From the NCBI GenBank assembly GCA_017347445.1, contig AP021856.1:750613-814612 (forward strand): DNA of 64,000 bases. Reading direction: 5' to 3'. This DNA is from Candidatus Brocadia pituitae. GTDB taxonomy: Bacteria; Planctomycetota; Brocadiia; Brocadiales; Brocadiaceae. Below are positions 45,017 to 57,338 of the stretch, in pieces. Under the pieces are notes generated by a model. The model worked only from the letters and a program-made list of their open reading frames with translations, did not search any database and was not told the origin of the DNA. A program made the translations under genes and the position numbers. Numbering within the stretch: position 1 is the stretch's first letter; the number at the start of each line of letters is the position of its first letter.

Positions 45017-46363
45017 GTGGAAGAAGCGAAGCCAGAAGACACAGTGTCTGAAATTGAAGGCTTAAGAATGCCGTTGGGAGCGCATCTTGAAGAGTTACGG
45101 AGACGGGTCGTATATTCTCTTATCTCAATTGTTCTCTGTTTTATCTTGTGCTGGTTTTTTAAAGTCCAGATACTGGATATGGCCAAAAGACCTCATAAAT
45201 TTGCCATGGAAAAGGTAGGCCTTTCAACAGAATTGCAGGTGCTGAGCTACCAGGAGGGCTTCTATGCGTATATGAAATTGTGCTTCATAACGTCGGTTTT
45301 TTTGGCCTATCCCTTTGTGATATACCAGATATGGCAATTTGTCAGCGCCGGCCTTTATAAAAAAGAGCAAAGGTACGTGCTATTGTTCCTCCCTGTCTCA
45401 TATGCAGCATTTGTGGTTGGCGGACTCTTTGGGTATTTTTTACTCATTCCCTTTGGTCTGCAATTTTTAATCGGCATCCTTGGTCCCGGTATTCAACCTA
45501 TCATCACGATGAAGGACTACGTCTCCTTCGTTTTCATGCTCACGGTTGCACTAGGTTTGGTGTTTCAGTTGCCGCTTGTTATGCTGCTTCTTTCGAAGAT
45601 CAGATTCATCACCCCTGATAAATTTATTGCATGGAGAAAGTACGCCATTCTGGTAATTTTTATTATTGCCGCTATTGTCACGCCGCCCGACCCTTTTACC
45701 CAGTCGATGACCGCTATTCCTATGATTGTCCTCTATGAGCTGGGAATACTCATCGCACGGCCCACAAAGAAGGGATTTTTCCTTTTAGGCACCATCGTTG
45801 GAGGGGGGATTCTGCTGTTGTTAATGTTTTATTTTTATTTTACCCACAAGGGAGGCGAAGTCAATCTGCTAGACACCCGGGGAGAGGTTCAATTTTTGCA
45901 TCCTGAAGGGCAGGAATGGGAAAAGGTGGCAAACCATACCCGTTTCCGGAACGGCGTTACCCTGAAAACCGGCAGTGAAGGGATGACCGCTCTCTCTACC
46001 AGAAAGGGTATTGATATAGGTATGGATGCAAATACCGAAGTGCATATTGTTGATTCTTTGAAGTTAAGGATGAAATCAGGCCAGATCCTCATTTCGGTAA
46101 AGGGGTTAAAAACACCACTGGAAATTGATACGCCAAATGGGCGGATTAGGACCGAACGGGGAACGTTAAATATTGTGGCAAAGGATTTTATTACCATTGT
46201 AACTGCGGTGAAGGGTGATGCCGTTCTGGTCACAGAGGGTGAAGAAAAAAAGTTACTGGAAGGACGTCAGCATAAGATGTCCATTGGCGGTGAGCCCGTT
46301 GACATTGGTGCTATTATTAATTGGTCTGAAGGCGTGATCAACAAATCAGCGGGTGGAGAATAA
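45017..46363 (+). CDS. tatC: TatC with an extra TM and a C-terminal FecR-like domain
   Basis: MPLGAHLEELRRR, YQIWQFVSAGLYKKE, FQLP, TPPDPFTQ, LYELGI; then a 7th TM and a FecR-like beta domain (LKTG...GQILISV...LEIDTPNG...TIVTAVKG). Confidence 0.93.
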   Translation: MEEAKPEDTVSEIEGLRMPLGAHLEELRRRVVYSLISIVLCFILCWFFKVQILDMAKRPHKFAMEKVGLSTELQVLSYQEGFYAYMKLCFITSVFLAYPFVIYQIWQFVSAGLYKKEQRYVLLFLPVSYAAFVVGGLFGYFLLIPFGLQFLIGILGPGIQPIITMKDYVSFVFMLTVALGLVFQLPLVMLLLSKIRFITPDKFIAWRKYAILVIFIIAAIVTPPDPFTQSMTAIPMIVLYELGILIARPTKKGFFLLGTIVGGGILLLLMFYFYFTHKGGEVNLLDTRGEVQFLHPEGQEWEKVANHTRFRNGVTLKTGSEGMTALSTRKGIDIGMDANTEVHIVDSLKLRMKSGQILISVKGLKTPLEIDTPNGRIRTERGTLNIVAKDFITIVTAVKGDAVLVTEGEEKKLLEGRQHKMSIGGEPVDIGAIINWSEGVINKSAGGE

Positions 46364-46402
46364 CTGTATTAATTAGTGTCATTGGATTATGTCTTGCAAA
46401 GT

Positions 46403-46448
46403 GTGACATGACACACTTGTGTGATGGCACATAAGTGTGCCATGTCAC
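46403..46448. promoter_or_regulatory. Compound palindrome: enhancer-binding-protein UAS or tatC terminator
   Basis: GTGACATGACACACTT-N14-AAGTGTGCCATGTCAC (15/16 match), built from TGTGNCA units, followed by a T-run. Confidence 0.55.
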
Positions 46449-46573
46449 GCTTTTTTCGTACGCTTTTAAAACGTTCATTCCCTCAAGTATTGCTCTTTAT
46501 ATAATTACAACTTCAATCTAAAAAAGGCCTTATATCACATATAGCATGAATAGCCCTTGTTTTTTCTTTTTCA

Positions 46574-46589
46574 TGGCATTTGTATTGCT
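46574..46589 (+). promoter_or_regulatory. Sigma-54 (-24/-12) promoter
   Basis: TGGCATTTGTATTGCT: GG-N10-GC with TGGCA and TTGCT consensus. Confidence 0.75.
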
Positions 46590-46616
46590 TTTTATCTTAA
46601 GTCAGCTACATGAATG

Positions 46617-46737
46617 CATCACGACAATGGTAAACCATGAGTGATCTTGGGGCGCAAGGAAAAGGGTCTTGTGGGCCGTTAAACAGCCTAAACTGTTCAA
46701 AACGGCTGAGATAAAGATAGCCTTACTCCCGAAGATG
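46617..46737 (+). ncRNA. c-di-GMP-I (GEMM-I) riboswitch aptamer
   Basis: P1 CATCACG/CGAAGATG, GGTAAACC, GTGA (GNRA) loop, GGGGCGCAAG, AGGGTCT...AGATAGCC, conserved C before the P1 3' strand; long P2 hairpin GCCGTT/AACGGC. Confidence 0.85.
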
Positions 46738-46774
46738 TGTTACAGAAAATCTTTGCAGTAAGGCTTTTGTTTTT
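46719..46774 (+). terminator. Riboswitch expression-platform intrinsic terminator
   Basis: AGCCTTACT (46719-46727) pairs with AGTAAGGCT (46757-46765), followed by TTTGTTTTT; the 5' arm overlaps the aptamer. Confidence 0.75.
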
Positions 46775-46789
46775 AAAGGATAAACGTAT

Positions 46790-48751
46790 ATGAATACTAT
46801 TTTCTCCTGCGTCTTCCGTACGAAGGACCATCTGTGCCGCATACTGCCCCTATTTTTATTCAGTCTCTCTGCCTTTGTGTCCCCTCTCCTTGCGGTATCA
46901 AACGATACGGAACCTGGCGTACATTTTGTTCGTGGCATTTTGCCCTCCCGGCAATATTTTGAAAACCATGAGATCCAGCGCTATGCTGTTGTGATTGGCA
47001 TATCGGATTATAAGGATCCGGGGATAGCCGATCTGGAATATGCGGACGCTGATGCCCAGGTATTTTATGATTTTCTTACCAGCCCGGCCGGTGGTGATTT
47101 CAAGAAAGAACACGTCTTGCTCCTGAAGAATGAGCAGGCAACCCTGAAAAACGTCACCCTTGCCATTACCAATTTTCTTAAAAAGACAAATGACCCTGAT
47201 TTTGTCGTCATCTTCATGGCATGTCATGGCGAGCCGGAACCTGACCGCCCCGGCAATCTCTATTTACTCATGCACGATTCTGAGCCCGGCAGCTTGTCTG
47301 CAACTGCTTATCACATGGAAGATGTCAATGCTGACATGAAACGATACATTTCGGCAAAGAGGCTTGTTTTATTTGCAGATGCCTGCCACAGTTCGGGGCT
47401 TGGCGAAGGTATCATGAATACCCGGGGAAGCACAAATACGATTCCTGCAGCGCTTTCCACACTCAAATCAACGAGGGAGGGATGGGGAATTGTAAGTGCA
47501 AGCAGGGCAAGGGAAGTTTCAAGGGAGTCACATCAGTTTGGTGGCGGTCATGGGGTATTTACTCACTACCTGCTGGAAGGTTTACAAGGAAAAGCCGATG
47601 CGGAAGGAAACAAAAATGGGATCGTTACCCTTACGGAGGCATTCGATTTTGTGGCTGAAAATGTGAAAAAGGCAACGCACAACGCACAGCATCCTGACCT
47701 ATCAGGAAATTTCGACAATAACCTTCCCCTGGGATTTCCCGGAGTAGAAACCGGCACCAAAGGAACTGCCCAAAAGACAGCTATGCCACCCTTAGGCGTT
47801 CTGAAAATTCATGGCATGCCCGAAGGGTCACGGGTATATATAAAAGGAAAAGAGGTCGGCGTCACCCCTCTGGACCTAAAACTCATGAGCGGGACATATC
47901 CTGTTAAGATAAAAACGAGAGGCCATCCCGATGTGTCGGAGACGGTATTTGTTAATCCCGATGAATTGACGGAGATCTGTGCTGAGCAACTCTTTGAGCG
48001 ATTCTATTTTGGGGCGGAATCCGGCACCTCCAGCGGCACCCATCTGGCCTATGCCGGGTCGGGCGGATACGCGCCGGATTACCTGGAATCGGATGATAAA
48101 ACGCATGATGTTGCACCAGCAAAAGCTATGTCCCCTGGCAGCGCTCCGACACCACAGGCAGAAACGGTGCACAAGCAGGCAGATTTGCAGAAAACAAAGG
48201 AAAACATCGATACACTCATAAAAGAACTAGAGATCATGGCAGAGAAACAAACCAGGGGAGAAAAACCCATGCCTGCTAAAAAACCGGGAGAAAAGAGACA
48301 TGAAACCGCAGACGTTCCACACTGCGTCCCTATATCTCTTAAGGAATTTAATGTAAAAATGGGCGCGTTATCAAACAGACATACCACGGAATTGCTCCGG
48401 CAAAGGATTATTGACGCCCTCTTGTCCCAAAACGGCTTACATGTGATGGAAAGGGATTTGGAATTGCAGGAGGCGATTTTACGGGAACAAAGGCTCGGTG
48501 GCTCTATGCTTGCCGATGAGCTGTATAGAATTGAGCTGGGAAAGATACAGGGAGCCCAATTCCTCTGTTTTGGAGAAGTATATCCGGGAAAAACGCCCGA
48601 TCAGCACATAGTAAGAATAGAATTGGTTGACACGGCAACAACGCTTATCGATACGCTTGAATGCGCCTTTCGGAGTGAAGAAGATCCGGGGGCCGTGGCA
48701 CGTGATATCGCCGCAAAGATGAAGGCAAAGATTGTCGCAAAAAGAAAATGA
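46790..48751 (+). CDS. Secreted caspase-like (C14, clan CD) peptidase + PEGA + CsgG-like domain
   Basis: Signal peptide; YAVVIGISDY, FMACHG (His), FADACHS (Cys); PEGA-like GSRVYIKGKEVGVTP; C-terminal VMERDLELQEAILREQRL...RIELVDTAT. Confidence 0.9.
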   Translation: MNTIFSCVFRTKDHLCRILPLFLFSLSAFVSPLLAVSNDTEPGVHFVRGILPSRQYFENHEIQRYAVVIGISDYKDPGIADLEYADADAQVFYDFLTSPAGGDFKKEHVLLLKNEQATLKNVTLAITNFLKKTNDPDFVVIFMACHGEPEPDRPGNLYLLMHDSEPGSLSATAYHMEDVNADMKRYISAKRLVLFADACHSSGLGEGIMNTRGSTNTIPAALSTLKSTREGWGIVSASRAREVSRESHQFGGGHGVFTHYLLEGLQGKADAEGNKNGIVTLTEAFDFVAENVKKATHNAQHPDLSGNFDNNLPLGFPGVETGTKGTAQKTAMPPLGVLKIHGMPEGSRVYIKGKEVGVTPLDLKLMSGTYPVKIKTRGHPDVSETVFVNPDELTEICAEQLFERFYFGAESGTSSGTHLAYAGSGGYAPDYLESDDKTHDVAPAKAMSPGSAPTPQAETVHKQADLQKTKENIDTLIKELEIMAEKQTRGEKPMPAKKPGEKRHETADVPHCVPISLKEFNVKMGALSNRHTTELLRQRIIDALLSQNGLHVMERDLELQEAILREQRLGGSMLADELYRIELGKIQGAQFLCFGEVYPGKTPDQHIVRIELVDTATTLIDTLECAFRSEEDPGAVARDIAAKMKAKIVAKRK

Positions 48752-48827: not shown

Positions 48828-49898
48828 ATGGAGGTGAGCGGCATGAAGAGAAATAGCTTGCACGCAAAAATCAGATGCAATGCACTCATGGTGTTCCTGG
48901 TATCGCCTTTTATCAGCGGCGTTACCCTTTTTTCAGCCACTGCAAAGGATACGACGCCGCCTGTGGTACAGACGGACGTAACAACCGCAGTGATCTATGA
49001 TACAAACCTCTTCCTGAGTGGCGAGGCTCTCGATGAGAGCGGTGTTGCCCAGGTCTTCGTAAATGAATGTCCTCTGGAAATCCGCGCTGGAAGGCGCGTC
49101 TTTTCCAACCATTTACACATCCTTGATAAAGGGGAAAATATCATCACCGTGAAAGCCATTGATGCAAACGGAAACACCTCGGCACCTTCACCGGTGAAAA
49201 TTATCAGAAAGTCCTTCGCTCTGCCGGAGACAGGTTTCCGGTATGCCGTTGCCCTGCTTCCGGTAAAGACCTTTGCAGAACGGGAGATGCCCACAGAGGC
49301 CATCTCCTCCCTGCTCCTGAAGGCATTCAGTGAAGAACCGAAGAGGTTTCATTTTGTAGAGCGGGATCATGCAAGACTCGAAGAAATCCTCCGTGAGCAA
49401 AAAATTAGCGCTACCGGGCTTCTATCTTCCGATACCGCCATCAAGATCGGCAGGATCGTCGCCGCAGACGGGATATTCTTGGGAACGGTAGATGAAGATG
49501 CCGGCGGCATGGGCATTACCTTGCGTCTCGTGGATACCGAAACGGCCCGCATACGTGCAACTGCCAGGGTGCATACGGAAGATAAGAGCATAGAAAATCT
49601 CGAATGGCTTGTCTATGGTCTGTCTTTGAAGATAAAGCAGCAGCTTCCCATGATGCAGGGAAGCGTTATTCGTGTTTCTGACCGGGGTTTTTACGTCAAT
49701 GCAGGCTCTGCAAATGGCATAGAGGTGGGTATGAAATTATTACTCTTCCGTGAAATCCGGGAAGGGAATTTCGTTTTAAAAGAACCGCTTGATACGGTTG
49801 CACGGGTGGCGCGGGTTTTGCCCCATACTTCCTTTGTTGCCATCACCAGAGAAGGCAGTTCAAAAGTGAAAAAGGGAGACTTTGTCTTGCTAAAGTAA
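48828..49898 (+). CDS. Secreted Ig-like + CsgG-like + FlgT-C-like protein
   Basis: DTTPPVV Ig domain; FVERDHARLEEILREQK...AIKIGRIVAADG...LRLVDTET; VNAGSANGIEVGMKL tail. Confidence 0.8.
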   Translation: MEVSGMKRNSLHAKIRCNALMVFLVSPFISGVTLFSATAKDTTPPVVQTDVTTAVIYDTNLFLSGEALDESGVAQVFVNECPLEIRAGRRVFSNHLHILDKGENIITVKAIDANGNTSAPSPVKIIRKSFALPETGFRYAVALLPVKTFAEREMPTEAISSLLLKAFSEEPKRFHFVERDHARLEEILREQKISATGLLSSDTAIKIGRIVAADGIFLGTVDEDAGGMGITLRLVDTETARIRATARVHTEDKSIENLEWLVYGLSLKIKQQLPMMQGSVIRVSDRGFYVNAGSANGIEVGMKLLLFREIREGNFVLKEPLDTVARVARVLPHTSFVAITREGSSKVKKGDFVLLK

Positions 49899-49975
49899 AA
49901 GGTAGCCTGATTGTATAGGAATTTCAAAGTTGTTGCAGAGCGAAGAGCTTCTTTGTTCTCCATGGAAAAGCAGTA

Positions 49976-50066
49976 CACCGAATATCGAACAGGGAATGAT
50001 GAGGTAGGGACAAGGAGCACCGTGTCCCTGCTAAATTCCTTGTTCTGCGGTTCGGTGTTCTCTTTA
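49976..50066. repeat. Imperfect palindromic spacer element
   Basis: CACCGAATATCGAACAGGGAAT...ATTCCTTGTTC...TTCGGTG; the same GAATATCGAACAGGGAAT-ATGA occurs at about 58614-58636. Confidence 0.55.
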
Positions 50067-50136
50067 CACTGCTGTCGCGAATATCTATTTAAACTGCGGA
50101 AACAAAGAAAGGTCTCGTGAGTTGAAGGTGTAACAC

Positions 50137-52326
50137 ATGGTAAAGACCTTTTGCCAAATATTCAAATTCATCGTTATGTTACCCGTATTTCTCTTGCCTT
50201 TTGCAGGATGTACAACGACTTCTCAGATCGGCACGGACAACTGGCGGGATTATTTTGAGCCGGGCCACACGAAAGAGGAGATTGGCAGAGATTTCAACCT
50301 TCATAGGGGTAAGTGGTGGAACTATTACATCCGTGGCCGCTGGTTTGCCGACGGTGGGCACTATGATGAGGCCGTCCGGGACTTTCAAAAGTCTATCAAT
50401 CTGAGAAGCCGTGACCAGCGTTCAGCCAGGAGTTACGGGATGCATTTTTGGGAATACTTTGCCCATCGTGAGCTGGGGATTGTGTATTACCATCAGGAAA
50501 GGTTTGCAGATGCGAAAAAGGAGTTGGAAACATCCCTTTCAACGGCAGATTCTGCTCGTGCCAAATTTTACCTGAACAAATGCAACGAGAGAATCCTGAA
50601 AGAAACGAAGAGAGACCGGCAGCCGCCGGTGATACAAATCACCTCTCACACCGGTGGGGAGATTGTCAATACGCCCGTGGTAGAGTTGCAGGGGGCCGCT
50701 ACCGACGATTCCTATGTAAACAGCATGTTTGTTCAGGAGAGACGGCTCTTCATAGAACTTGCCGAAAGGGCGCTTCCGTTTGATGAAACCATTGCCCTGC
50801 AACCGGGAGAAAATCTGGTTCGTCTGGAGGCAACAGACCTTTCGGGCAAAAGCGTCCAGCGGGATTTGAAACTCACACTGGATCTGCGTCCACCGGTTTT
50901 GTATCTGGATGATATACAAATACAGAAAAGAGACGGCAGGAATATTGCCGTTGTCACGGGAACTATCACGGACGATAATGGGGTGCAGCGTCTCTCTATT
51001 AACGACATCGAGATACCCATTCCTCCGGATAAAGCGGTGAATTTTAAACAGGATGTTGTCCTGACGGACGGCCATAAATTCTCAGTAAAAGCAGTCGATG
51101 TGGCTGGTAACGAAACAATGGGCGAAGAGCAGTTAGACATTAAGGCATCACTGTGGCCCGGCGGCATATGGGACAAGCACATCCGGCACGCGCAACGGAC
51201 AACGGGTAAGCCTGTCATGGTTGCCCAAGGCAAAATGGACGGGGCTGAAGTAAAGAGGATGCTGGCTTCTTACGACACAGGCGCACCATCAGCTTTTACA
51301 AGTCCTTCCTCAGGAAACGCTGAAAATGCAGGAAAGGAAGCAAAAGGGGCTTCGGTCTCACCGGTAGTGGCGAAAGACACTGTCCCTCCGGTAGTATATA
51401 CTGATTTAAAAGCTGCGATTGTCCATGACGCAACCCTCTTCTTCGGTATCCACGCGCACGACGATGGCGGTGTTGCCAGGCTCTTTGTCAATCAGCAGCC
51501 TTTAGAGATCCGCCCGGCGAAGCACGTCTTCCTCAATCACCTGTTGACGCTCAGCGAAGGAGAGAATACCGTACTGGTAAAAGCCGTTGATACCCAGGGA
51601 AACGAAACGCAGCTTGCACCGGTGAAAATTACCAGAAAGGCCTTTTATCTGCTGGAAACGGATGCCCGGTATACCGTGGCGTTGCTTCCGTTAAGGACGT
51701 TTGCAGCAGACGGGGTTCTCCCGGAGACCCTCTACTCACTGTTGCTCAGGTCATTTGATGAAGAGCCGAGGAGATTTAACTTTGTGGAACGTGACCGGGC
51801 AAAACTTGAGGAGATCCTTCGTGAGCAAAAGATTAACGATAAGGCGCTTACTTCTCCGGATGCAGCCATAAGGGTTGGGAAGATCCGCGCAGCCGAGGGC
51901 ATGCTCTTTGGCGCGGTGGAAGAGAATGCGAAGGGTATTAACGTTACCCTGCGGCTGGTAGATACGGAAACAACCCAGGTACTGGTCAATACGGACGTAT
52001 ACAGCGAGGATAAGAGTGCGGAGAATCTTGCATGGCTTATGCATGGTTTGTCACTCAAGGTGAAACGGCAATATCCCATGGTGCAGGGAAGCATTATCCG
52101 TGTTTCGGGGAATGGATTTCATGTCGATGCCGGCGCAACGAGCGGTATCAGGATAGGTATGAAATTGCTCATCTTTCGGGAGATACAGGAGGGTAATGTT
52201 GTGATAAAAGAACCCCTGGATACTATTGCCCGAATAACACAGATAGAGACTGAAACCTCGTTTGCCAGAATCAGCAGCAAAGGGAATAAAAAGATAGAAA
52301 AGAAGGACTGTGCTATCACGAAGTAA
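50137..52326 (+). CDS. Lipoprotein with TPR, three Ig-like domains and CsgG/FlgT-like module
   Basis: Lipobox FAGC; TPR helices (YYIRGRWF..., HRELGIVYYHQ); repeated Ig domains; C-terminal about 310 aa paralogous to 48828..49898. Confidence 0.85.
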   Translation: MVKTFCQIFKFIVMLPVFLLPFAGCTTTSQIGTDNWRDYFEPGHTKEEIGRDFNLHRGKWWNYYIRGRWFADGGHYDEAVRDFQKSINLRSRDQRSARSYGMHFWEYFAHRELGIVYYHQERFADAKKELETSLSTADSARAKFYLNKCNERILKETKRDRQPPVIQITSHTGGEIVNTPVVELQGAATDDSYVNSMFVQERRLFIELAERALPFDETIALQPGENLVRLEATDLSGKSVQRDLKLTLDLRPPVLYLDDIQIQKRDGRNIAVVTGTITDDNGVQRLSINDIEIPIPPDKAVNFKQDVVLTDGHKFSVKAVDVAGNETMGEEQLDIKASLWPGGIWDKHIRHAQRTTGKPVMVAQGKMDGAEVKRMLASYDTGAPSAFTSPSSGNAENAGKEAKGASVSPVVAKDTVPPVVYTDLKAAIVHDATLFFGIHAHDDGGVARLFVNQQPLEIRPAKHVFLNHLLTLSEGENTVLVKAVDTQGNETQLAPVKITRKAFYLLETDARYTVALLPLRTFAADGVLPETLYSLLLRSFDEEPRRFNFVERDRAKLEEILREQKINDKALTSPDAAIRVGKIRAAEGMLFGAVEENAKGINVTLRLVDTETTQVLVNTDVYSEDKSAENLAWLMHGLSLKVKRQYPMVQGSIIRVSGNGFHVDAGATSGIRIGMKLLIFREIQEGNVVIKEPLDTIARITQIETETSFARISSKGNKKIEKKDCAITK

Positions 52327-52352
52327 ATTATCGTAAACGGTGAAAGAAAAGG

Positions 52353-52443
52353 TATCATTGCGCTGGTGTTAGCCCGAAGCAATCTCTCCAGTGGGATTGC
52401 TTCGCTGTCGCTCGCAATGACCAGTACATATCAACTTATTTAA
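52353..52443 (-). repeat. Palindromic element, family A (inverted copy)
   Basis: Reverse complement closely matches 33228-33316. Confidence 0.85.
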
Positions 52444-52933
52444 CTGTTAAGGAATTTCAAGCAATTTCCTCCCCCTCGATGGGGAGGTTAGGTGGGGGTG
52501 ATCGAGCGGTGAGAGAGGAGTATCAACATATAGCTAAAATTCTGAGAAAAAGGTCTACCGGTGTAATGGTAATTTTATTTCACCCCTTCAGGGTTGTGTA
52601 TTTTATCTGCCCATGGTTCTATAATCATTTCAGCCCTTCGGGCTTTTTTACTGCAGAGCGGATTTTGTTTTTCTTACGTGTGGATACCTGCAGGTACGCA
52701 TCTACAGAGAAAGGTGTTTTTCAAAAAGCTAAAGCTTGAACCCGCAGGAAGCGTTAGACCAAGGATATCTTTGTAAAAAAAGAGAGGTTCGGCCAATTAT
52801 ACAATTCCTCAAACGATATGAACTAAATGATCAAAAGGCTTAATAATCGATCTCAATAATACAGAAATTAATGGCCAAAAATACAAAAAGCAGTAACTCT
52901 AAACGTTAAATCTGAAACACGAATGGTGTCAAT

Positions 52934-54283
52934 ATGAGATTCATACGGCCTCTTTTTATGTTACTGTTTGCTTGTAGTGTTATACAACAGCACCAGACCT
53001 CTTTTGCTCAAACAGTACCTCCCACCATAAATGCGATTCCCCTTCCCATTGGTTCAGGCGCAAGGGCATTAGGCATGGGCGGGGCATTTATTGCCGTTGC
53101 CGACGATGCCACGGCGGCATCGTGGAACCCCGGAGGTCTGACACAACTGGAACGGCCAGAACTCTCTGTAGTAGGCTCTTTCTTATCTACACAACAGGAT
53201 TGGAATCCTGGCAGTACCGGATTGTTGTCATTGGATCAAGAGAGAATATCGTCAGGTGACTTGAATTATGCCAGTGTTGCATATCCATTTAGGGTCTGTG
53301 GGAAAAACTTAGTTGCCGCCTTGAATTATCAGCAGAAATACGATTTTCACATAGAGTTTGATTATGATCGGATATTTGAAGACCCAGAGGCTAAATTTTT
53401 TGATAAGTCATCAACCGATTTTAAATCAAGGGGCGGAATAGCAGCCCTGACACCTTCCATCGCTCTGCAGGTGATACCAAAATTGTCACTTGGCATAGCC
53501 GTAAATTTTTATACCGATGAATTATTCGGAGACTTTGCATGGAGAGGAAAATTCAAAAGAATAACCAAGGGGTCGAATTCAGGTAATGATTTTAGCAGTT
53601 CATTTAATGAAGAACAAACATTTAAAAATTTTCAGGCAGTCAATGTAACGGTAGGTATGCTCATGAACGTGTGGGAAAGGGAGGAGAAACATCTTACCTT
53701 TGGTGCTGTTTTCCATTCCCCCTATACAGCAGATATGGATCGTATTCTAGATAGTGTGTCTGTTGGAATTGATGAAACCGGAACAACTATAGACATAAAA
53801 CATTTACCAGAACATTTTAAAATAGATTTTCCCATGTCCTTTGGCGCTGGTCTGGGTTTCCGTTATACCGATGCCTTATCCTTTTCTTTAGACGTGACGT
53901 GGACCGATTGGTCTGAATTTGAACAAGAGGATGAGCTTGGCAATGAGTCGCGTCCGTTAGGTTTTGTATCTACCGACCGGGAAATTGATGATACCCATGC
54001 AGCGAGGTTTGGTACAGAATACCTGATATTCCGGCAAAAGATGATTATTCCCGTGCGTGGGGGATTTTTTTATGAGCCTCGTCCCTCCTTAGACGACTCT
54101 ACAGATGTATATGGCGTTAGCGTGGGCAGCGGCATTACCTCTAAAAGGTTTAGCATTGACGCTGCCTATCAGTTCCGGTGGGCAAACGACGTAGATGGTG
54201 AAGATTTTGGCGGTGTTCTTAATGGGACTCATTTTGATCTCAACGAGCACCTGTTCCTCGCCTCCGTCATTGTGTATTTTTGA
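52934..54283 (+). CDS. FadL/OmpP1/PorV-like outer-membrane beta-barrel
   Basis: Signal peptide; GSGARALGMGGAFIAVADDATAASWNPGGL hatch motif; C-terminal VIVYF beta-signal. Confidence 0.88.
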   Translation: MRFIRPLFMLLFACSVIQQHQTSFAQTVPPTINAIPLPIGSGARALGMGGAFIAVADDATAASWNPGGLTQLERPELSVVGSFLSTQQDWNPGSTGLLSLDQERISSGDLNYASVAYPFRVCGKNLVAALNYQQKYDFHIEFDYDRIFEDPEAKFFDKSSTDFKSRGGIAALTPSIALQVIPKLSLGIAVNFYTDELFGDFAWRGKFKRITKGSNSGNDFSSSFNEEQTFKNFQAVNVTVGMLMNVWEREEKHLTFGAVFHSPYTADMDRILDSVSVGIDETGTTIDIKHLPEHFKIDFPMSFGAGLGFRYTDALSFSLDVTWTDWSEFEQEDELGNESRPLGFVSTDREIDDTHAARFGTEYLIFRQKMIIPVRGGFFYEPRPSLDDSTDVYGVSVGSGITSKRFSIDAAYQFRWANDVDGEDFGGVLNGTHFDLNEHLFLASVIVYF

Positions 54284-54386
54284 TCTTTTTGAATTTAAGC
54301 TCTACACTTAAGACTCACAACTCAAAAAAGGTATTGGGTATGTACTCCACCTTTATTAAAAATAAGGTTTCAAAGGAGGAAAGACG

Positions 54387-54815
54387 ATGCGTTTAAGAAA
54401 CAGGTCTACACAGTTTTATGGGTTGATGGCAGTATTTGTTCTGTTGTTCAGTGTATCGATTTGTGGGTGCATAACGATTACTATTAATGAGTGTTGTCAA
54501 GGCTCGTGTAAAGTCGCTTCTGGAGGGGGTGGAACTACTCCTACACCATGGCCTAATCCGGGAAGATTTTATGGAAAGGTAACAAGTGGTCCGAGCGGTC
54601 AAGGTATAGGTGGTGCGCAAATGGCCTTTGATGGTCCTAGCGATACGACTAAGATTAGAAATGCCGATGGCACTTATACGAGTAACTTGATGGCTCCAGG
54701 TACTTACACAATAACCGTTACTGCTTCTGGTTATAAAACAATAACCAACAAAGGGGTATCTTTACCGCCGGACGGGTATGTAAAGAAAAACTATTCGATG
54801 ACTCCAAATCCATAA
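54387..54815 (+). CDS. Probable lipoprotein with carboxypeptidase-regulatory-like beta-sandwich
   Basis: Lipobox-like ICGC; GKVTSG...IGGAQ...DGTY...PGTYTITVTASGYKT. Confidence 0.75.
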   Translation: MRLRNRSTQFYGLMAVFVLLFSVSICGCITITINECCQGSCKVASGGGGTTPTPWPNPGRFYGKVTSGPSGQGIGGAQMAFDGPSDTTKIRNADGTYTSNLMAPGTYTITVTASGYKTITNKGVSLPPDGYVKKNYSMTPNP

Positions 54816-54932
54816 TAAATCGTAATCTTTGACCAAGGTTGGATTAAACAAAGCGAAACCCAACAGTACCAATTGTGATGTTGTTGGAGATTTTGAGTTT
54901 CGCCATTCACGTGAGGGTAAGGAGGAAACATT

Positions 54933-55886
54933 ATGAAAATAGCGATCCTAAAGCGATTATTCAGGCCATGTAATCAGTTTTTTTTTCTTACAATGTTGAT
55001 TTCAATCTTCATAATATCAGGTTTTGCGTATACCAAAGAAGCAAGTGAGCCAACACCATCACCAGACAGTCAAGCATCCAAAGAAACGCCCACGAAAGAA
55101 AAAGATGTGGTTAAGCCAGTACCGCTACAGGACTACCTGATCAAAATACCCTCTGTTGAAAGAATCGAGGGCATTGCCTGGGACGAGGGCAAAAAAAATC
55201 TTTTCGTGTTAGATGGCGAGAAGAAAAAAATCGATAGGATTAATCCTATTTCAGGCCAACTTTTACAATCACTTGTTTTCGATCCGGTACAATTATTTGT
55301 CTTGGATCAGAAAAACTTAAAAGGTTTAGCCTTTGATAGAGAAGCAAAAGTATTATGGGTTGCCGCTGAAGAAAAAGCCAAAGAAAAAAAAGCCCCGATC
55401 TTGATTATGGTTGATCCCGTGAGTGGAAAGACAATAAAAACAATAGACATGGAAATCCCCGAAGAGAAAGGGTTTGATTCCATTGAGGGCATTACCTGGG
55501 ATGAGAAAAGGAAAGACCTCTGGGTTGCTATTTATGCAGGGTTTTCGAGTTCGTTTAACCAGATTAATCCTGAGACCGGAGAGATCATAAGAAGTGTATT
55601 TGCTGACTGTTATCCCCGGGGTATTGCAACGGATGGAGAAAACCTCTGGAGCATTTGTTACAACGGTGAGAAATTCCCTTCAAAAATAGATAAGAGAAAA
55701 ATACAAGAAAAAGATTATGAAATGTTTCATTCGCGTACCTTCATCGAAGACATACCGGAGGCCAAACAGCCGACCAGCCTTGTTTTTGACGGTACACATC
55801 TCTGGTACGCAGACAGAAAAACAAAGAGTGCCATAAGGTTTACGCCACCTGTTACCGCACCTGATAAGACACCTGTTAAAAAGTAA
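54933..55886 (+). CDS. Exported beta-propeller protein (YncE/glutaminyl-cyclase-like)
   Basis: Repeats IEGIAWDEG, KGLAFD, IEGITWD, RGIATDG, TSLVFDG each followed by LW; signal peptide. Confidence 0.75.
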   Translation: MKIAILKRLFRPCNQFFFLTMLISIFIISGFAYTKEASEPTPSPDSQASKETPTKEKDVVKPVPLQDYLIKIPSVERIEGIAWDEGKKNLFVLDGEKKKIDRINPISGQLLQSLVFDPVQLFVLDQKNLKGLAFDREAKVLWVAAEEKAKEKKAPILIMVDPVSGKTIKTIDMEIPEEKGFDSIEGITWDEKRKDLWVAIYAGFSSSFNQINPETGEIIRSVFADCYPRGIATDGENLWSICYNGEKFPSKIDKRKIQEKDYEMFHSRTFIEDIPEAKQPTSLVFDGTHLWYADRKTKSAIRFTPPVTAPDKTPVKK

Positions 55887-55915
55887 TAATTACAAACTCT
55901 AAAAGGGGGAATGCC

Positions 55916-56965
55916 ATGCAAAGATATTTAAAGAGATTTTATTATATCTCTCTGCTATGTTTTATTCTTTTTGGAGGCTGCACCACATTTGAATACACAC
56001 GTGTACCTACATCTGAAAAGAAGTCGGCACTAAAGCATAGTCATTGTTATAGTTGTTTATGTAGTATGCCTGAGCCTATTCCTGAATCCATACTTGAAGA
56101 AACTATATCTGAAGAATCTCTGTCTAAAACCACACCGGCATCTAAAACTGGCCCCACAAGGAAATACGCAGTTTTAATCAGTGCCGGTGTAACCAAAGCA
56201 GATAATTCATGGGGTGATTCCGAATATTGGTATGACCTCGTATCGCAATATCAGCTGTTGAAGGATCATGGGTTTGAAGATGGCAATATTTATGTCCTTT
56301 ACGGTACCGGAACAGATTTTGTATCCGGCAATCACAAATATAATTCTGCAAGACGATTTGGACATTCAATTACTAAAGCTGCTGCTAATGCTACGGATGC
56401 TGCCGTTACCAAGGCCAATATCGAAGGCGTGTTCAAGGAATTAAATGGCAAAGTAACGAAAAATGACCATTTGTATGTATGGTGGATGGGACATGGTTCG
56501 TCTCTCCCAAGAGATCCTTGTTACCTTTCCCTTTTCATTGGTTATACGGACGAACATGTTCATTCTCTTGATGATGAAGAATTGAGCAAATACATTGGCC
56601 TTGTTTCAAATTATAAAAAACGTACTATTGCAATAATGACCTGCCACTCTGGCGGTTTCATTGATGATATGAGTATTGTAGATAATAAAACGGTTACCCT
56701 TGTATCATCAAAATGTGAAGAATCTTCTTATTCTTATGTTAATTCATCAGCCTGTGATGATATTTTCCATGCAGAATTTAATTATACCCTAACAAACGCA
56801 CTACGTCAGAAGGACCCATGTGATTCACCCATTCTATCAAACACATATAGAGATGGTTATGTATCATTATTGGAAACACATCAATATAATGAAAAAGAAA
56901 TGGCATGGTCAACCCCTCTGATGGGCGATCCTGATGGGATAAGTCGTTTGGAACCATTTAAATAA
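55916..56965 (+). CDS. Lipoprotein with clan CD (legumain/C13-like) cysteine peptidase domain
   Basis: Lipobox FGGC; KYAVLISAG, LLKDHGF..NIYVLY, WWMGHG (His), IMTCHSGGF (Cys). Confidence 0.8.
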   Translation: MQRYLKRFYYISLLCFILFGGCTTFEYTRVPTSEKKSALKHSHCYSCLCSMPEPIPESILEETISEESLSKTTPASKTGPTRKYAVLISAGVTKADNSWGDSEYWYDLVSQYQLLKDHGFEDGNIYVLYGTGTDFVSGNHKYNSARRFGHSITKAAANATDAAVTKANIEGVFKELNGKVTKNDHLYVWWMGHGSSLPRDPCYLSLFIGYTDEHVHSLDDEELSKYIGLVSNYKKRTIAIMTCHSGGFIDDMSIVDNKTVTLVSSKCEESSYSYVNSSACDDIFHAEFNYTLTNALRQKDPCDSPILSNTYRDGYVSLLETHQYNEKEMAWSTPLMGDPDGISRLEPFK

Positions 56966-57071
56966 GGACGAACCATACATAACTCTTTCATTGGGTGCAT
57001 TCCCAATTTTTTGTAAATATTCGCACTTGCCTGTCGGCTAACATATTGTATCGCAAATATCTTGCATGATT

Positions 57072-57104
57072 AACCCTGACAGGGTTTGGAACCCTGTCAG
57101 GGTT
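57072..57104. repeat. REP-like double palindrome
   Basis: AACCCTGACAGGGTT-TGG-AACCCTGTCAGGGTT. Confidence 0.8.
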
Positions 57105-57338
57105 GTTTTTCCAGACCCCATTACAGTTGCAAAAAACAGGAATGCTCCCGATAAAACAAAAACACTTGCAATTTTCTTTGCTTCTGCTAAATTAACTGGA
57201 TGTATAGTATTTCAAAGTATCTATTATGGCGACCAAACACCCCCCTGAGTTCCCCTTTTCTAAGGGGGTTGTGTTTTTTTGCTGGCATTGCCATGCATCT
57301 GAAAGTCGCTGCTAAAGGCAGCCTAATGTAATATAATC

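What the first reader, a model, noticed from the sequence alone, without database searches (positions are those of the whole stretch)
46617..46774. c-di-GMP-I riboswitch wired as a transcriptional ON switch
Seen: all GEMM-I landmarks, with G at the position equivalent to Vc2 G20 and a covarying G21-C46 pair. A terminator (AGCCTTACT/AGTAAGGCT plus U-tract) uses the aptamer's own P2 and P1 3' strands. Known: G20 favours c-di-GMP and A20 favours 3',3'-cGAMP. Inference: ligand binding blocks the terminator, so the caspase operon turns on in the high-c-di-GMP, sessile or granule state, under double control with sigma-54.
Basis: partly seen in the sequence, partly recalled or inferred. Interest (0 to 1): 0.8.

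Follow-up and report, generated by a model that had tools for sequence, protein, structure and literature searches.

The report
Anammox c-di-GMP riboswitch ON switch
The leader of a secreted caspase-like protease operon in an anammox bacterium (Candidatus Brocadia) holds a real class I c-di-GMP riboswitch built to lift a transcription terminator when the signal is bound: a known kind of switch, in an organism where it has not been described.

Summary
Rfam's c-di-GMP-I model gives the window's only hit at 46619-46733 (37.5 bits, threshold 35). Four other Brocadia genomes carry the same element at the same place before the same gene (48.8-63 bits).

The ligand-contact bases are canonical: G20 = G46629, A47 = A46656, C92 = C46729. 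The C44-G83 tertiary pair and a GUGA tetraloop are also present. Helices covary strongly across 38 relatives.

The terminator is 46719-46765 plus a U-tract at 46766-46774. Its 5' arm is the 3' strand of the aptamer's second hairpin, then C92, then the 3' strand of the closing helix. Aptamer and terminator therefore exclude each other, which gives an ON switch. All 17 Brocadiales-type cassettes I examined have this wiring, in front of various secreted or surface proteins.

A sigma-54 -24/-12 element (46574-46589) and two 16-bp palindromes (46401-16, 46435-50) are conserved with it. This supports dual control.

Caveats:
- The window's copy is the most deviant of the set, with two helix mismatches and two changes at near-invariant positions.
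- Ligand binding and read-through are untested.
- c-di-GMP-I ON switches are already known (Bc2 of Bacillus thuringiensis).

It is a new member of a known kind. The anammox, sigma-54 and caspase context gives it moderate interest.

The parts
46401..46416 (.). Palindrome 1 of a putative enhancer (UAS), GTGTGACATGACACAC
   Evidence: 4 strand-matches in the window against 0.39 expected, and 0/100 shuffles reach 4. Conserved in L001, L002, L012 and L014, and upstream of sigma-54 cassettes in L009 and L193. It can also form the left arm of a long hairpin after the tatC-FecR gene.
46435..46450 (.). Palindrome 2 of the putative UAS, GTGTGCCATGTCACGC, followed by a T-run
   Evidence: One search lists 46433-46452 as terminator-like, so it may also terminate the upstream gene.
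46574..46589 (+). Sigma-54-type -24/-12 promoter TGGCAT-N5-TTGCT; predicted transcription start near 46600
   Evidence: the only match in the window (0.37 expected by chance, so weak alone). Conserved with exact GG-N10-GC spacing in 5 orthologous loci plus L009 and L193. The RNA contig of run X30 begins at 46622, with nothing in 46354-46621.
46617..46737 (+). c-di-GMP-I (GEMM-I) aptamer. P1 is 46617-23 with 46730-37. P2 is 46630-46655 with the GUGA loop at 46641-44. P3 is 46658-46727 with a long distal extension at about 46673-46709. Contact bases are G46629, A46656 and C46729, with the tertiary pair C46653-G46720.
46719..46774 (+). Intrinsic terminator. The 5' arm is 46719-27 plus 46730-36, the loop is 46737-48, the 3' arm is 46749-55 plus 46757-65, and the U-tract is 46766-74. 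The 5' arm overlaps the aptamer.
   Evidence: the terminator hairpin is part of the MFE fold of the leader; -18.0 kcal/mol for the hairpin alone; homologues -19 to -27; the free MFE always contains the terminator.
46776..46792 (+). RBS (AAGGA) and ATG start codon of the first gene, outside both alternative structures
   Evidence: conserved AAAGGAT...ATGAATAC.
46790..48751 (+). Secreted orthocaspase (Peptidase_C14, His146/Cys199 dyad) with a PEGA domain and a C-terminal tail whose sequence looks CsgG-like by eye
   Evidence: No Pfam CsgG hit on this protein itself; some homologues carry PF03783.
48828..56965 (+). Rest of the probable operon: a CsgG-like lipoprotein (48828-49898); a TPR/Glucodextran_B/Big/CsgG-like protein (50137-52326); a FadL/TodX-type outer-membrane protein (52934-54283); a CarboxypepD_reg protein (54387-54815); a 317-aa protein (54933-55886); and a Peptidase_C13-like protein (55916-56965)
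   Evidence: All genes are on the same strand. The first strong terminator after them is at 57071-57105. The operon extent is inferred, not shown.

Best explanation
This is a class I c-di-GMP riboswitch acting as a transcriptional ON switch in the 5' leader of a Candidatus Brocadia operon for a secreted caspase-like protease and envelope proteins.

Transcription probably starts near 46600 from a sigma-54 promoter, which depends on an enhancer-binding protein bound at two upstream palindromes. As the leader is made, the aptamer (46617-46737) folds.

- With c-di-GMP bound between G46629, A46656 and C46729, helices P3 and P1 are locked. Nucleotides 46719-46736 are then unavailable, the terminator cannot form, and the polymerase reads into the operon.
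- Without ligand, the downstream strand 46749-46765 invades P1 and P3 and forms a 16-bp hairpin followed by a U-tract. Transcription stops at about 46774.

Expression therefore needs both the sigma-54 activator signal and high c-di-GMP.

Shown: the aptamer's identity, its conservation, its covariation and the overlap geometry. Inferred: ligand binding, termination and read-through, the sigma-54 dependence, and the physiological meaning.
For: - **Family match.** Rfam hit above threshold in the window and in 4 orthologous loci.
- **Binding-site bases.** G20, A47, C92, C44 and G83 are canonical (positions defined in PMC4744006 and PMC6140456).
- **Aptamer covariation.** In 38 aptamers, 96.8% of cells are paired and 17/24 pairs change on both sides. 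0/500 shuffles reach this, and slid controls give 28-44% paired.
- **P1 compensation.** C-G becomes U-A in L012.
- **Terminator.** It is in the MFE fold. The same overlap is present in 17/17 cassettes upstream of different genes. The 3' arm is complementary in 91% of cells, with 5 double changes.
- **Promoter and enhancer.** The sigma-54 element and the palindromes are conserved.
- **Transcript evidence.** In one transcriptome, RNA contigs start at 46622 and run through the terminator into the gene, with no coverage of the promoter region.
- **Experimental precedent.** The Bc2 c-di-GMP-I ON switch (PMC4933901).
Against: - The window's copy scores only 2.5 bits above threshold. It has U.U and A.A helix mismatches plus substitutions at two near-invariant positions next to the binding pocket (46658, 46728).
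- With the terminator's 3' arm blocked, ViennaRNA does not recover the canonical aptamer for this copy. It predicts a competing hairpin (AUCAC...GUGAU) instead.
- Terminator covariation rests on few independent events, mainly L124 and L009.
- The sigma-54 match alone is expected 0.37 times per window by chance.
- No rpoN, enhancer-binding protein or GGDEF gene lies in the window.
- Contig-level RNA data cannot measure termination.
- A co-existing strain has deleted the whole element, so it is dispensable in reactors.
Confidence: 0.75

Rival explanations
1. This particular copy is a decaying or weakened riboswitch. The family is functional in Brocadia, but in this strain mutations have reduced ligand affinity and terminator strength. 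The leader then acts mainly as a leaky constitutive attenuator.
For: It has the lowest Rfam score among orthologues, 37.5 against 48.8-63. It has unique changes at 46658 and 46728 and a U.U mismatch in P2. Its terminator is the weakest of 17, at -18.0 kcal/mol. A competing hairpin is predicted. A sister strain has deleted the region.
Against: All five ligand and tertiary contact bases are intact. The G.U at 46658/46727 still pairs. Run X1 gives the identical sequence at about 470x depth, so these are real, fixed bases in a successful population. The closest relative, L001, shares the A.A mismatch yet scores 48.8 bits. GEMM-I aptamers bind very tightly, so some loss of affinity is tolerable (general knowledge).
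Confidence: 0.15
2. The aptamer senses a different cyclic dinucleotide (3',3'-cGAMP), or is bispecific.
For: GEMM-I and GEMM-Ib share one fold, and some natural members are bispecific (PMC6140456). The window also matches the RF03167 variant model at 39.7 bits.
Against: Position 20 is G in the window and in all orthologues fetched by protein similarity, and cGAMP sensors have A there (PMC6140456). Position 47 is A, not the G of the RF03167 consensus. RF03167's threshold of 59 is not reached by the window.
Confidence: 0.05
3. It is an OFF switch or a translational switch: ligand binding lowers expression, or acts on the RBS.
For: Many c-di-GMP-I riboswitches are OFF switches. Expression platforms cannot be read with certainty from sequence.
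Against: No anti-terminator lies between aptamer and terminator, because the terminator's 5' arm is itself aptamer sequence. The RBS at 46776-80 lies 3' of the U-tract and pairs with nothing in the MFE fold.
Confidence: 0.04

Closest known systems
Bc2 c-di-GMP-I riboswitch of Bacillus thuringiensis (upstream of the collagen adhesion protein gene cap)
   Same: It is a class I aptamer followed by an intrinsic terminator. c-di-GMP binding prevents termination, giving a genetic ON switch, and it controls a secreted or surface protein linked to aggregation (PMC4933901).
   Different: The phylum differs (Bacillota versus Planctomycetota/Brocadiales). No sigma-54 promoter or enhancer is reported for Bc2. 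The cargo here is a caspase/PEGA/CsgG-like envelope operon. Here the terminator's 5' arm is directly the aptamer's own 3' half.
Vc2 (Vibrio cholerae) c-di-GMP-I aptamer, the structural reference
   Same: The same three-helix fold, the G20/A47/C92 ligand contacts, the C44-G83 inter-helix pair and a GNRA tetraloop on P2 (PMC4744006, PMC6140456).
   Different: The window RNA has a GUGA loop rather than a GAAA loop, U22.G45 instead of C-G, a 45-nt insertion that lengthens P3, and two helix mismatches. Its expression platform is a clear terminator.
GEMM-Ib 3',3'-cGAMP riboswitches of Geobacter
   Same: The same fold, and many are transcriptional ON switches upstream of extracellular or surface functions (PMC6140456, PMC8835794).
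   Different: They have A at position 20. The window and all its orthologues have G.
Tandem c-di-GMP-I riboswitches (Bc3-5 of B. thuringiensis)
   Same: Related Brocadiales loci L186 and L082 carry two complete aptamer-plus-terminator units on one contig (adjacent in series in L186; about 670 nt apart with a small PqqD-like ORF between them in L082). Natural tandem arrays are known (PMC4759541).
   Different: The window locus has a single unit. There, the second input is a sigma-54 promoter rather than a second aptamer.

Membership tests
c-di-GMP-I riboswitch (Rfam RF01051, GEMM-I) | Covariance-model score at or above the curated gathering score | tested here: met
   37.5 bits against 35 in the window. 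Two orthologues, L001 (48.8 bits) and L012 (53.7), plus a cassette before a different gene in L009 (50.3), are listed under RF01051. Orthologues L002 (61.1) and L014 (63) are listed under the clan relative RF03167.
c-di-GMP-I riboswitch (Rfam RF01051, GEMM-I) | Two hairpins closed by a short helix, supported by compensatory changes | tested here: met
   96.8% paired, 17/24 pairs with double changes, 0/500 shuffles; the window forms 22 of 24 pairs.
c-di-GMP-I riboswitch (Rfam RF01051, GEMM-I) | Ligand-contact bases G20, A47 and C92 (Vc2 numbering) | tested here: met
   G46629, A46656 and C46729. Roles are as described in PMC4744006 and PMC6140456.
c-di-GMP-I riboswitch (Rfam RF01051, GEMM-I) | Inter-helix Watson-Crick pair C44-G83 | tested here: met
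   C46653 and G46720. G83 is G in 38/38 aligned aptamers, and my search pattern did not fix it.
c-di-GMP-I riboswitch (Rfam RF01051, GEMM-I) | GNRA tetraloop on P2 docking into a receptor in P3 (type 1) | tested here: inconclusive
   A GUGA tetraloop is present at 46641-44. P3 has conserved tandem C-G/U-A pairs (46668-69 with 46715-16), which from memory are the preferred helical receptor for GUGA. There is no structural test.
c-di-GMP-I riboswitch (Rfam RF01051, GEMM-I) | Binds c-di-GMP and changes expression | not testable with these tools
   Needs in-line probing or ITC, and transcription assays.
GEMM-Ib (3',3'-cGAMP) riboswitch | Adenine at position 20 | tested here: not met
   G46629. G also in the orthologues found by protein similarity.
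c-di-GMP-I-GGC variant (Rfam RF03167) | Score at or above the gathering score of 59, and the variant binding-site base (G where RF01051 has A47, as read from the model consensus) | tested here: not met
   The window scores 39.7 bits. Position 47 is A in the window and in L002 and L014, although those two score 61-63 bits. They pass that threshold but lack the variant base.
Intrinsic (Rho-independent) terminator | Stable stem-loop directly followed by a U-tract | tested here: met
   9+7 bp stem and TTTGTTTTT. Actual termination was not testable.
Sigma-54-dependent promoter | -24 GG and -12 GC elements with fixed spacing (TGGCAC-N5-TTGCW) | tested here: met
   TGGCATTTGTATTGCT at 46574-89. Conserved in 7 loci.
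Sigma-54-dependent promoter | Upstream activator sites and a cognate enhancer-binding protein; rpoN in the genome | tested here: inconclusive
   Conserved paired palindromes lie about 140-175 bp upstream. No enhancer-binding protein or rpoN gene is in the window. The rest of the genome was not examined.

The most novel reading that the evidence does not exclude
The unit 'two palindromes + sigma-54 promoter + c-di-GMP-I ON aptamer + terminator' may be a reusable AND-gate cassette. Brocadia would have placed it in front of several unrelated secreted-protein genes: the caspase/PEGA/CsgG-like operon here, a choice-of-anchor-L protein in L009 and an FN3 lipoprotein in L193. That would define a combined sigma-54 and c-di-GMP regulon that builds or remodels the cell surface and matrix during anammox aggregation. 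Natural deletion alleles of the cassette segregate in bioreactors.
Probability: 0.4. Interest if true: 0.55.

Novelty: new member of a known kind. Interest (0 to 1): 0.4.

Why it matters
Anammox bacteria are used in wastewater treatment because they grow as granules and biofilms. c-di-GMP is thought to drive that aggregation, but direct c-di-GMP effectors and targets in these uncultured organisms are poorly defined. These riboswitches name concrete genes that should respond to c-di-GMP:
- a secreted caspase-like protease operon;
- beta-helix/Ig-like adhesin-type proteins;
- a choice-of-anchor-L protein;
- a cell-wall amidase.

They also give a simple RNA read-out, the ratio of leader to coding-region transcripts, for the c-di-GMP state of Brocadia in reactors. 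The pairing of a sigma-54 enhancer-dependent promoter with a riboswitch is a tidy two-input gate. I found no paper describing this pairing for c-di-GMP-I, and none describing riboswitches in anammox bacteria.

The switch type itself is textbook. Any Rfam-based annotation would flag it.

Tried and rejected
1. **Measuring termination from public RNA runs.** Only Logan contigs were available, with flat depth. Runs X2, X4, X6 and X7 cover the whole region and may contain DNA.
2. **Small-RNA libraries.** I suspected that X32, X34 and X39 (share of words about 0.23) held the terminated leader. They hold only the conserved coding part from related strains, so I dropped the idea.
3. **Riboswitch before caspase homologues of other anammox genera** (Jettenia, Kuenenia, Wunengus-like, Anammoxibacter; L003-L008, L010, L011, L013, L015-L019). 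There were no Rfam hits and no hits with my own model R1. Those genes are a longer paralogue type, about 720 aa with an N-terminal FecR-like part. In several of the loci (L003, L004, L009, L013, L016, L018) they lie downstream of a gene whose 3' end looks like a class III nucleotide cyclase (read by eye, not searched). The riboswitch therefore belongs to the 653-aa Brocadia type only.
4. **RF03167 (GGC variant) membership.** Rejected, because position 47 is A.
5. **Enhancer-binding protein, rpoN or GGDEF genes in the window.** None found by motif search or Pfam.
6. **The upstream palindromes as merely the terminator of the tatC-FecR gene.** Not excluded. Their recurrence with sigma-54 promoters before unrelated genes in L009 and L193 favours a protein-binding site.

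Full report
**1. What is at the coordinates**

A gathering-threshold Rfam scan of the whole window gives one hit: c-di-GMP-I (RF01051) at 46619-46733 on the + strand. It scores 37.5 bits against a curated cut-off of 35, with E = 9.6e-4, and covers the full model. A more permissive scan of 46400-46900 also aligns the region to the clan relative RF03167 (c-di-GMP-I-GGC). That match scores 39.7 bits, far below that family's cut-off of 59. RF03167 models the outer closing helix, and the window forms it.

The sequence folds as follows.
- **P1:** 46617-23 with 46730-37 (CAUC-A-CG / CG-AA-GAUG).
- **Junction:** G46629.
- **P2:** G46630-C46655 and U46631.G46654, then a 6-bp stem (46635-40 with 46645-50) capped by GUGA (46641-44).
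- **Junction:** A46656 and A46657.
- **P3:** 46658-46670 with 46714-46727, carrying a 45-nt distal extension that forms its own hairpin.
- **3' of P3:** C46728, C46729, then the P1 3' strand.

PMC4744006 gives the Vc2 contacts as G20, A47 and C92, and states that an inter-helix Watson-Crick pair is universally conserved. From these offsets the equivalents in the window are G46629, A46656, C46729 and C46653-G46720. All are canonical.

**2. Is it more than chance**

The downstream protein identifies the organism as an anammox bacterium of the genus Candidatus Brocadia. The best match is 94% identical (Brocadia sp. DTUAMX2), and other hits come from Brocadia, Jettenia, Kuenenia, Wunengus and Anammoxibacter.

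Four other Brocadia genomes have an Rfam hit 55-70 nt upstream of the orthologous gene. L001 and L012 score 48.8 and 53.7 bits under RF01051. L002 and L014 score 61.1 and 63 bits under RF03167. The five leaders align from promoter to start codon.

They show compensatory changes.
- In P2, the third pair is A-U in the window and L001 and C-G in the others.
- In P1, C-G becomes U-A in L012.
- In P3, U-A becomes U.G in L002.

I built a covariance model from the five (R1). I also fetched more aptamers with a DNA pattern from metagenomes. Across 38 aptamers, 96.8% of cells form standard pairs, and 17 of 24 pairs change on both sides. No shuffle out of 500 reaches this, and slid controls give 28-44% paired.

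One caveat applies. The pattern fixed G20, G21, C46, A47 and the outer P2 pairs. Invariance at those positions is therefore informative only for the sequences found through the protein. C92 and G83 were not fixed, and both are invariant in 38/38.

**3. The window's copy is the odd one out**

It has four deviations.
- A U.U mismatch in P2 (46638/46647).
- An A.A mismatch in P3 (46660/46725), shared with L001.
- G instead of A at 46658 (A in 37/38), which turns the closing A-U pair of P3 into G.U.
- C instead of G at 46728 (G in 36/38), next to C92.

These explain the marginal Rfam score. They are real bases, because DNA run X1 reproduces the window exactly at about 470x depth. With the terminator blocked, ViennaRNA recovers a GEMM-like fold for several relatives. 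For the window it predicts a competing hairpin instead (AUCAC...GUGAU). I therefore keep a 'weakened copy' rival at 0.15.

**4. Expression platform**

Nucleotides 46719-27 (AGCCUUACU) pair with 46757-65 (AGUAAGGCU). Nucleotides 46730-36 (CGAAGAU) pair with 46749-55 (AUCUUUG). UUUGUUUUU follows at 46766-74. This hairpin is part of the MFE fold of the leader (-18.0 kcal/mol on its own).

Its 5' arm is entirely aptamer sequence: G83, the P3 3' strand, then the P1 3' strand. C92 lies in a small internal loop here and is paired in the orthologues. Aptamer and terminator are therefore mutually exclusive, with no separate anti-terminator. The RBS (46776-80) and the ATG (46790) lie 3' of the U-tract and are unpaired. 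In Vc2 nomenclature the strands are P3-3' and P1-3', not 'P2 and P1'.

The design is not a one-off. All 17 low-GC, Brocadiales-type cassettes I extracted have a terminator that starts at the same AGCC and ends in a U-tract, with stabilities of -18 to -41.5 kcal/mol. The set is the window, L001, L002, L012, L014, L009, L082 (two), L089, L112, L159, L186 (two), L191, L193, L096 and L124. The free MFE contains the terminator in every case.

Across 15 of them, 91% of terminator cells pair, and five pairs change on both sides. Examples are ACUACC/GGUAGU in L009 and AGCCGGGUU/AACCCGGU in L124. No shuffle out of 500 reaches this count. The number of independent events is small. Much of the conservation on the 5' side is imposed by the aptamer. 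The informative part is that the 3' arm stays complementary in front of unrelated genes.

**5. Promoter and enhancer**

TGGCATTTGTATTGCT at 46574-89 is the only match to TGGYAY-N5-TTGCW in the window. A match is expected 0.37 times by chance, so alone it means little. However, it is conserved with exact GG-N10-GC spacing in all five orthologous loci.

Two 16-bp palindromes lie about 140-175 bp upstream: GTGTGnCATGnCACAC at 46401-16 and 46435-50. No shuffle out of 100 reaches the observed count. They are the most conserved part of the intergenic region.

The same palindromes, a sigma-54 element, a near-identical aptamer and a terminator also precede two other genes. One encodes a choice-of-anchor-L protein in L009. 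The other encodes an FN3-containing lipoprotein in L193. Between the functional elements the spacers have diverged.

This supports dual control by an enhancer-binding protein with sigma-54 and by the riboswitch. Other cassettes have sigma-70-like promoters instead, so sigma-54 is not inherent to the riboswitch. No activator, rpoN or GGDEF gene lies in the window.

In a transcriptome from what appears to be the source study (X30), contigs cover the upstream gene. Nothing covers 46354-46621. One contig then runs from 46622 through the terminator to 46900. That fits a start just downstream of the sigma-54 element and some read-through. Contig data cannot quantify termination.

**6. What is controlled**

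The first gene (46790-48751) encodes a protein with several recognisable parts.
- A signal peptide.
- A Peptidase_C14 caspase domain with the His146/Cys199 dyad, in the motifs ACHGEP and DACHSSG, which are invariant among 24 homologues.
- A PEGA domain.
- A C-terminal tail whose sequence looks CsgG-like by eye. Pfam gave no CsgG hit on this protein itself, but some homologues carry PF03783.

The genes that follow on the same strand are:
- a CsgG-like lipoprotein;
- a TPR/Glucodextran_B/Big/CsgG-like protein;
- a FadL/TodX-type outer-membrane protein;
- a CarboxypepD_reg protein;
- a 317-aa protein;
- a Peptidase_C13-like protein, which is a second clan-CD protease.

They end before a strong terminator at 57071-57105.

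Sister cassettes precede four other kinds of gene.
- A 1026-aa right-handed beta-helix/Big_1 protein, behind two aptamer-terminator units in tandem (L186).
- An N-acetylmuramoyl-L-alanine amidase (L089, L112).
- A small PqqD-like protein (L082).
- Large Peptidase_C39-like proteins (L096; the L124 ORF has a similar N-terminal region but was not itself scanned).

The cargo is thus largely secreted or envelope proteins. That is the usual territory of c-di-GMP, and it makes the link to aggregation plausible. It remains an inference.

**7. Comparison with what is known**

G at position 20 marks c-di-GMP sensors and A marks cGAMP sensors (PMC6140456). The element is not GEMM-Ib. It is not the GGC variant either, because position 47 is A.

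A c-di-GMP-I aptamer that lifts a terminator on ligand binding has been shown experimentally for Bc2 of Bacillus thuringiensis, upstream of an adhesin (PMC4933901). Tandem arrays are also known (PMC4759541).

Full-text searches found no paper that describes riboswitches in anammox bacteria, and none that pairs a c-di-GMP riboswitch with sigma-54. The library does not cover all journals.

**8. Verdict**

The element is a new member of a known kind. Its value lies in three things: it names c-di-GMP-responsive genes in an uncultured, industrially important bacterium; it has a two-input sigma-54/riboswitch architecture; and its cargo is a caspase-like operon. I score interest at 0.4.

Noticed in passing
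window 46404-47331: A joined form 46403->47332 skips 928 nt and has 8-nt microhomology (TGACATGA at both ends). It occurs in contigs of two DNA runs (X3, X8) and three RNA runs (X4, X6, X7), linked to nearby SNPs. A co-existing sister strain has therefore deleted the palindromes, the promoter, the riboswitch, the terminator and the first ~181 codons of the caspase gene (including His146). This is a natural null allele, at depth equal to or above the intact form in some reactors.
   Followed up: partly
window 46401-46416 and 46435-46450; L009 11973-12021; L193 6580-6626: Paired 16-bp palindromes GTGTGnCATGnCACAC travel with sigma-54 promoters in front of three unrelated gene types. They are probably the binding site of one enhancer-binding protein. 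In the window they can also fold into a long hairpin with a T-run after the tatC-FecR gene.
   Followed up: partly
L004, L005, L007 (upstream of the ~720-aa caspase paralogues); L003, L004, L009, L013, L016, L018: The longer caspase-PEGA paralogues, which have an N-terminal FecR-like region, lack the riboswitch. In several loci they lie just downstream of a gene whose 3' end looks like a class III nucleotide cyclase (read by eye, not searched against a family library). In L004, L005 and L007 they are preceded by a perfect TGTGACGTACGTCACA palindrome, which resembles a CRP/FNR-type site. This hints that paralogues of one protease system answer to different nucleotide signals.
   Followed up: no
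L186 (7764-8250, reverse-oriented), L082 1503-2500, L125: Two complete aptamer-plus-terminator units lie in direct tandem before a beta-helix/Big_1 protein (L186). In L082 two such units lie about 670 nt apart on the same contig with a small PqqD-like ORF between them. L125, from a different and non-Brocadia-like organism, has two pairs of adjacent GEMM-I aptamers.
   Followed up: partly
window 45017-46363: The upstream gene encodes a TatC translocase fused to a C-terminal FecR-like domain (residues ~315-401), an unusual fusion. The FecR-like domain is the same kind that sits at the N-terminus of the longer caspase paralogues.
   Followed up: no
window 55916-56965: The last gene of the probable operon is a Peptidase_C13 (legumain-like) homologue. 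The operon therefore carries two clan-CD cysteine proteases.
   Followed up: no
window 46618-46645 (also L001): A predicted alternative hairpin (AUCAC/GUGAU plus AUGG/CCAU) would sequester G20, G21 and the tetraloop. It exists only in the window and L001, where position 46628 is U instead of A. It may be chance or an extra folding trap.
   Followed up: no
window 57071-57105: A perfect 16-bp hairpin with a T-run lies after the operon and is probably its terminator.
   Followed up: no
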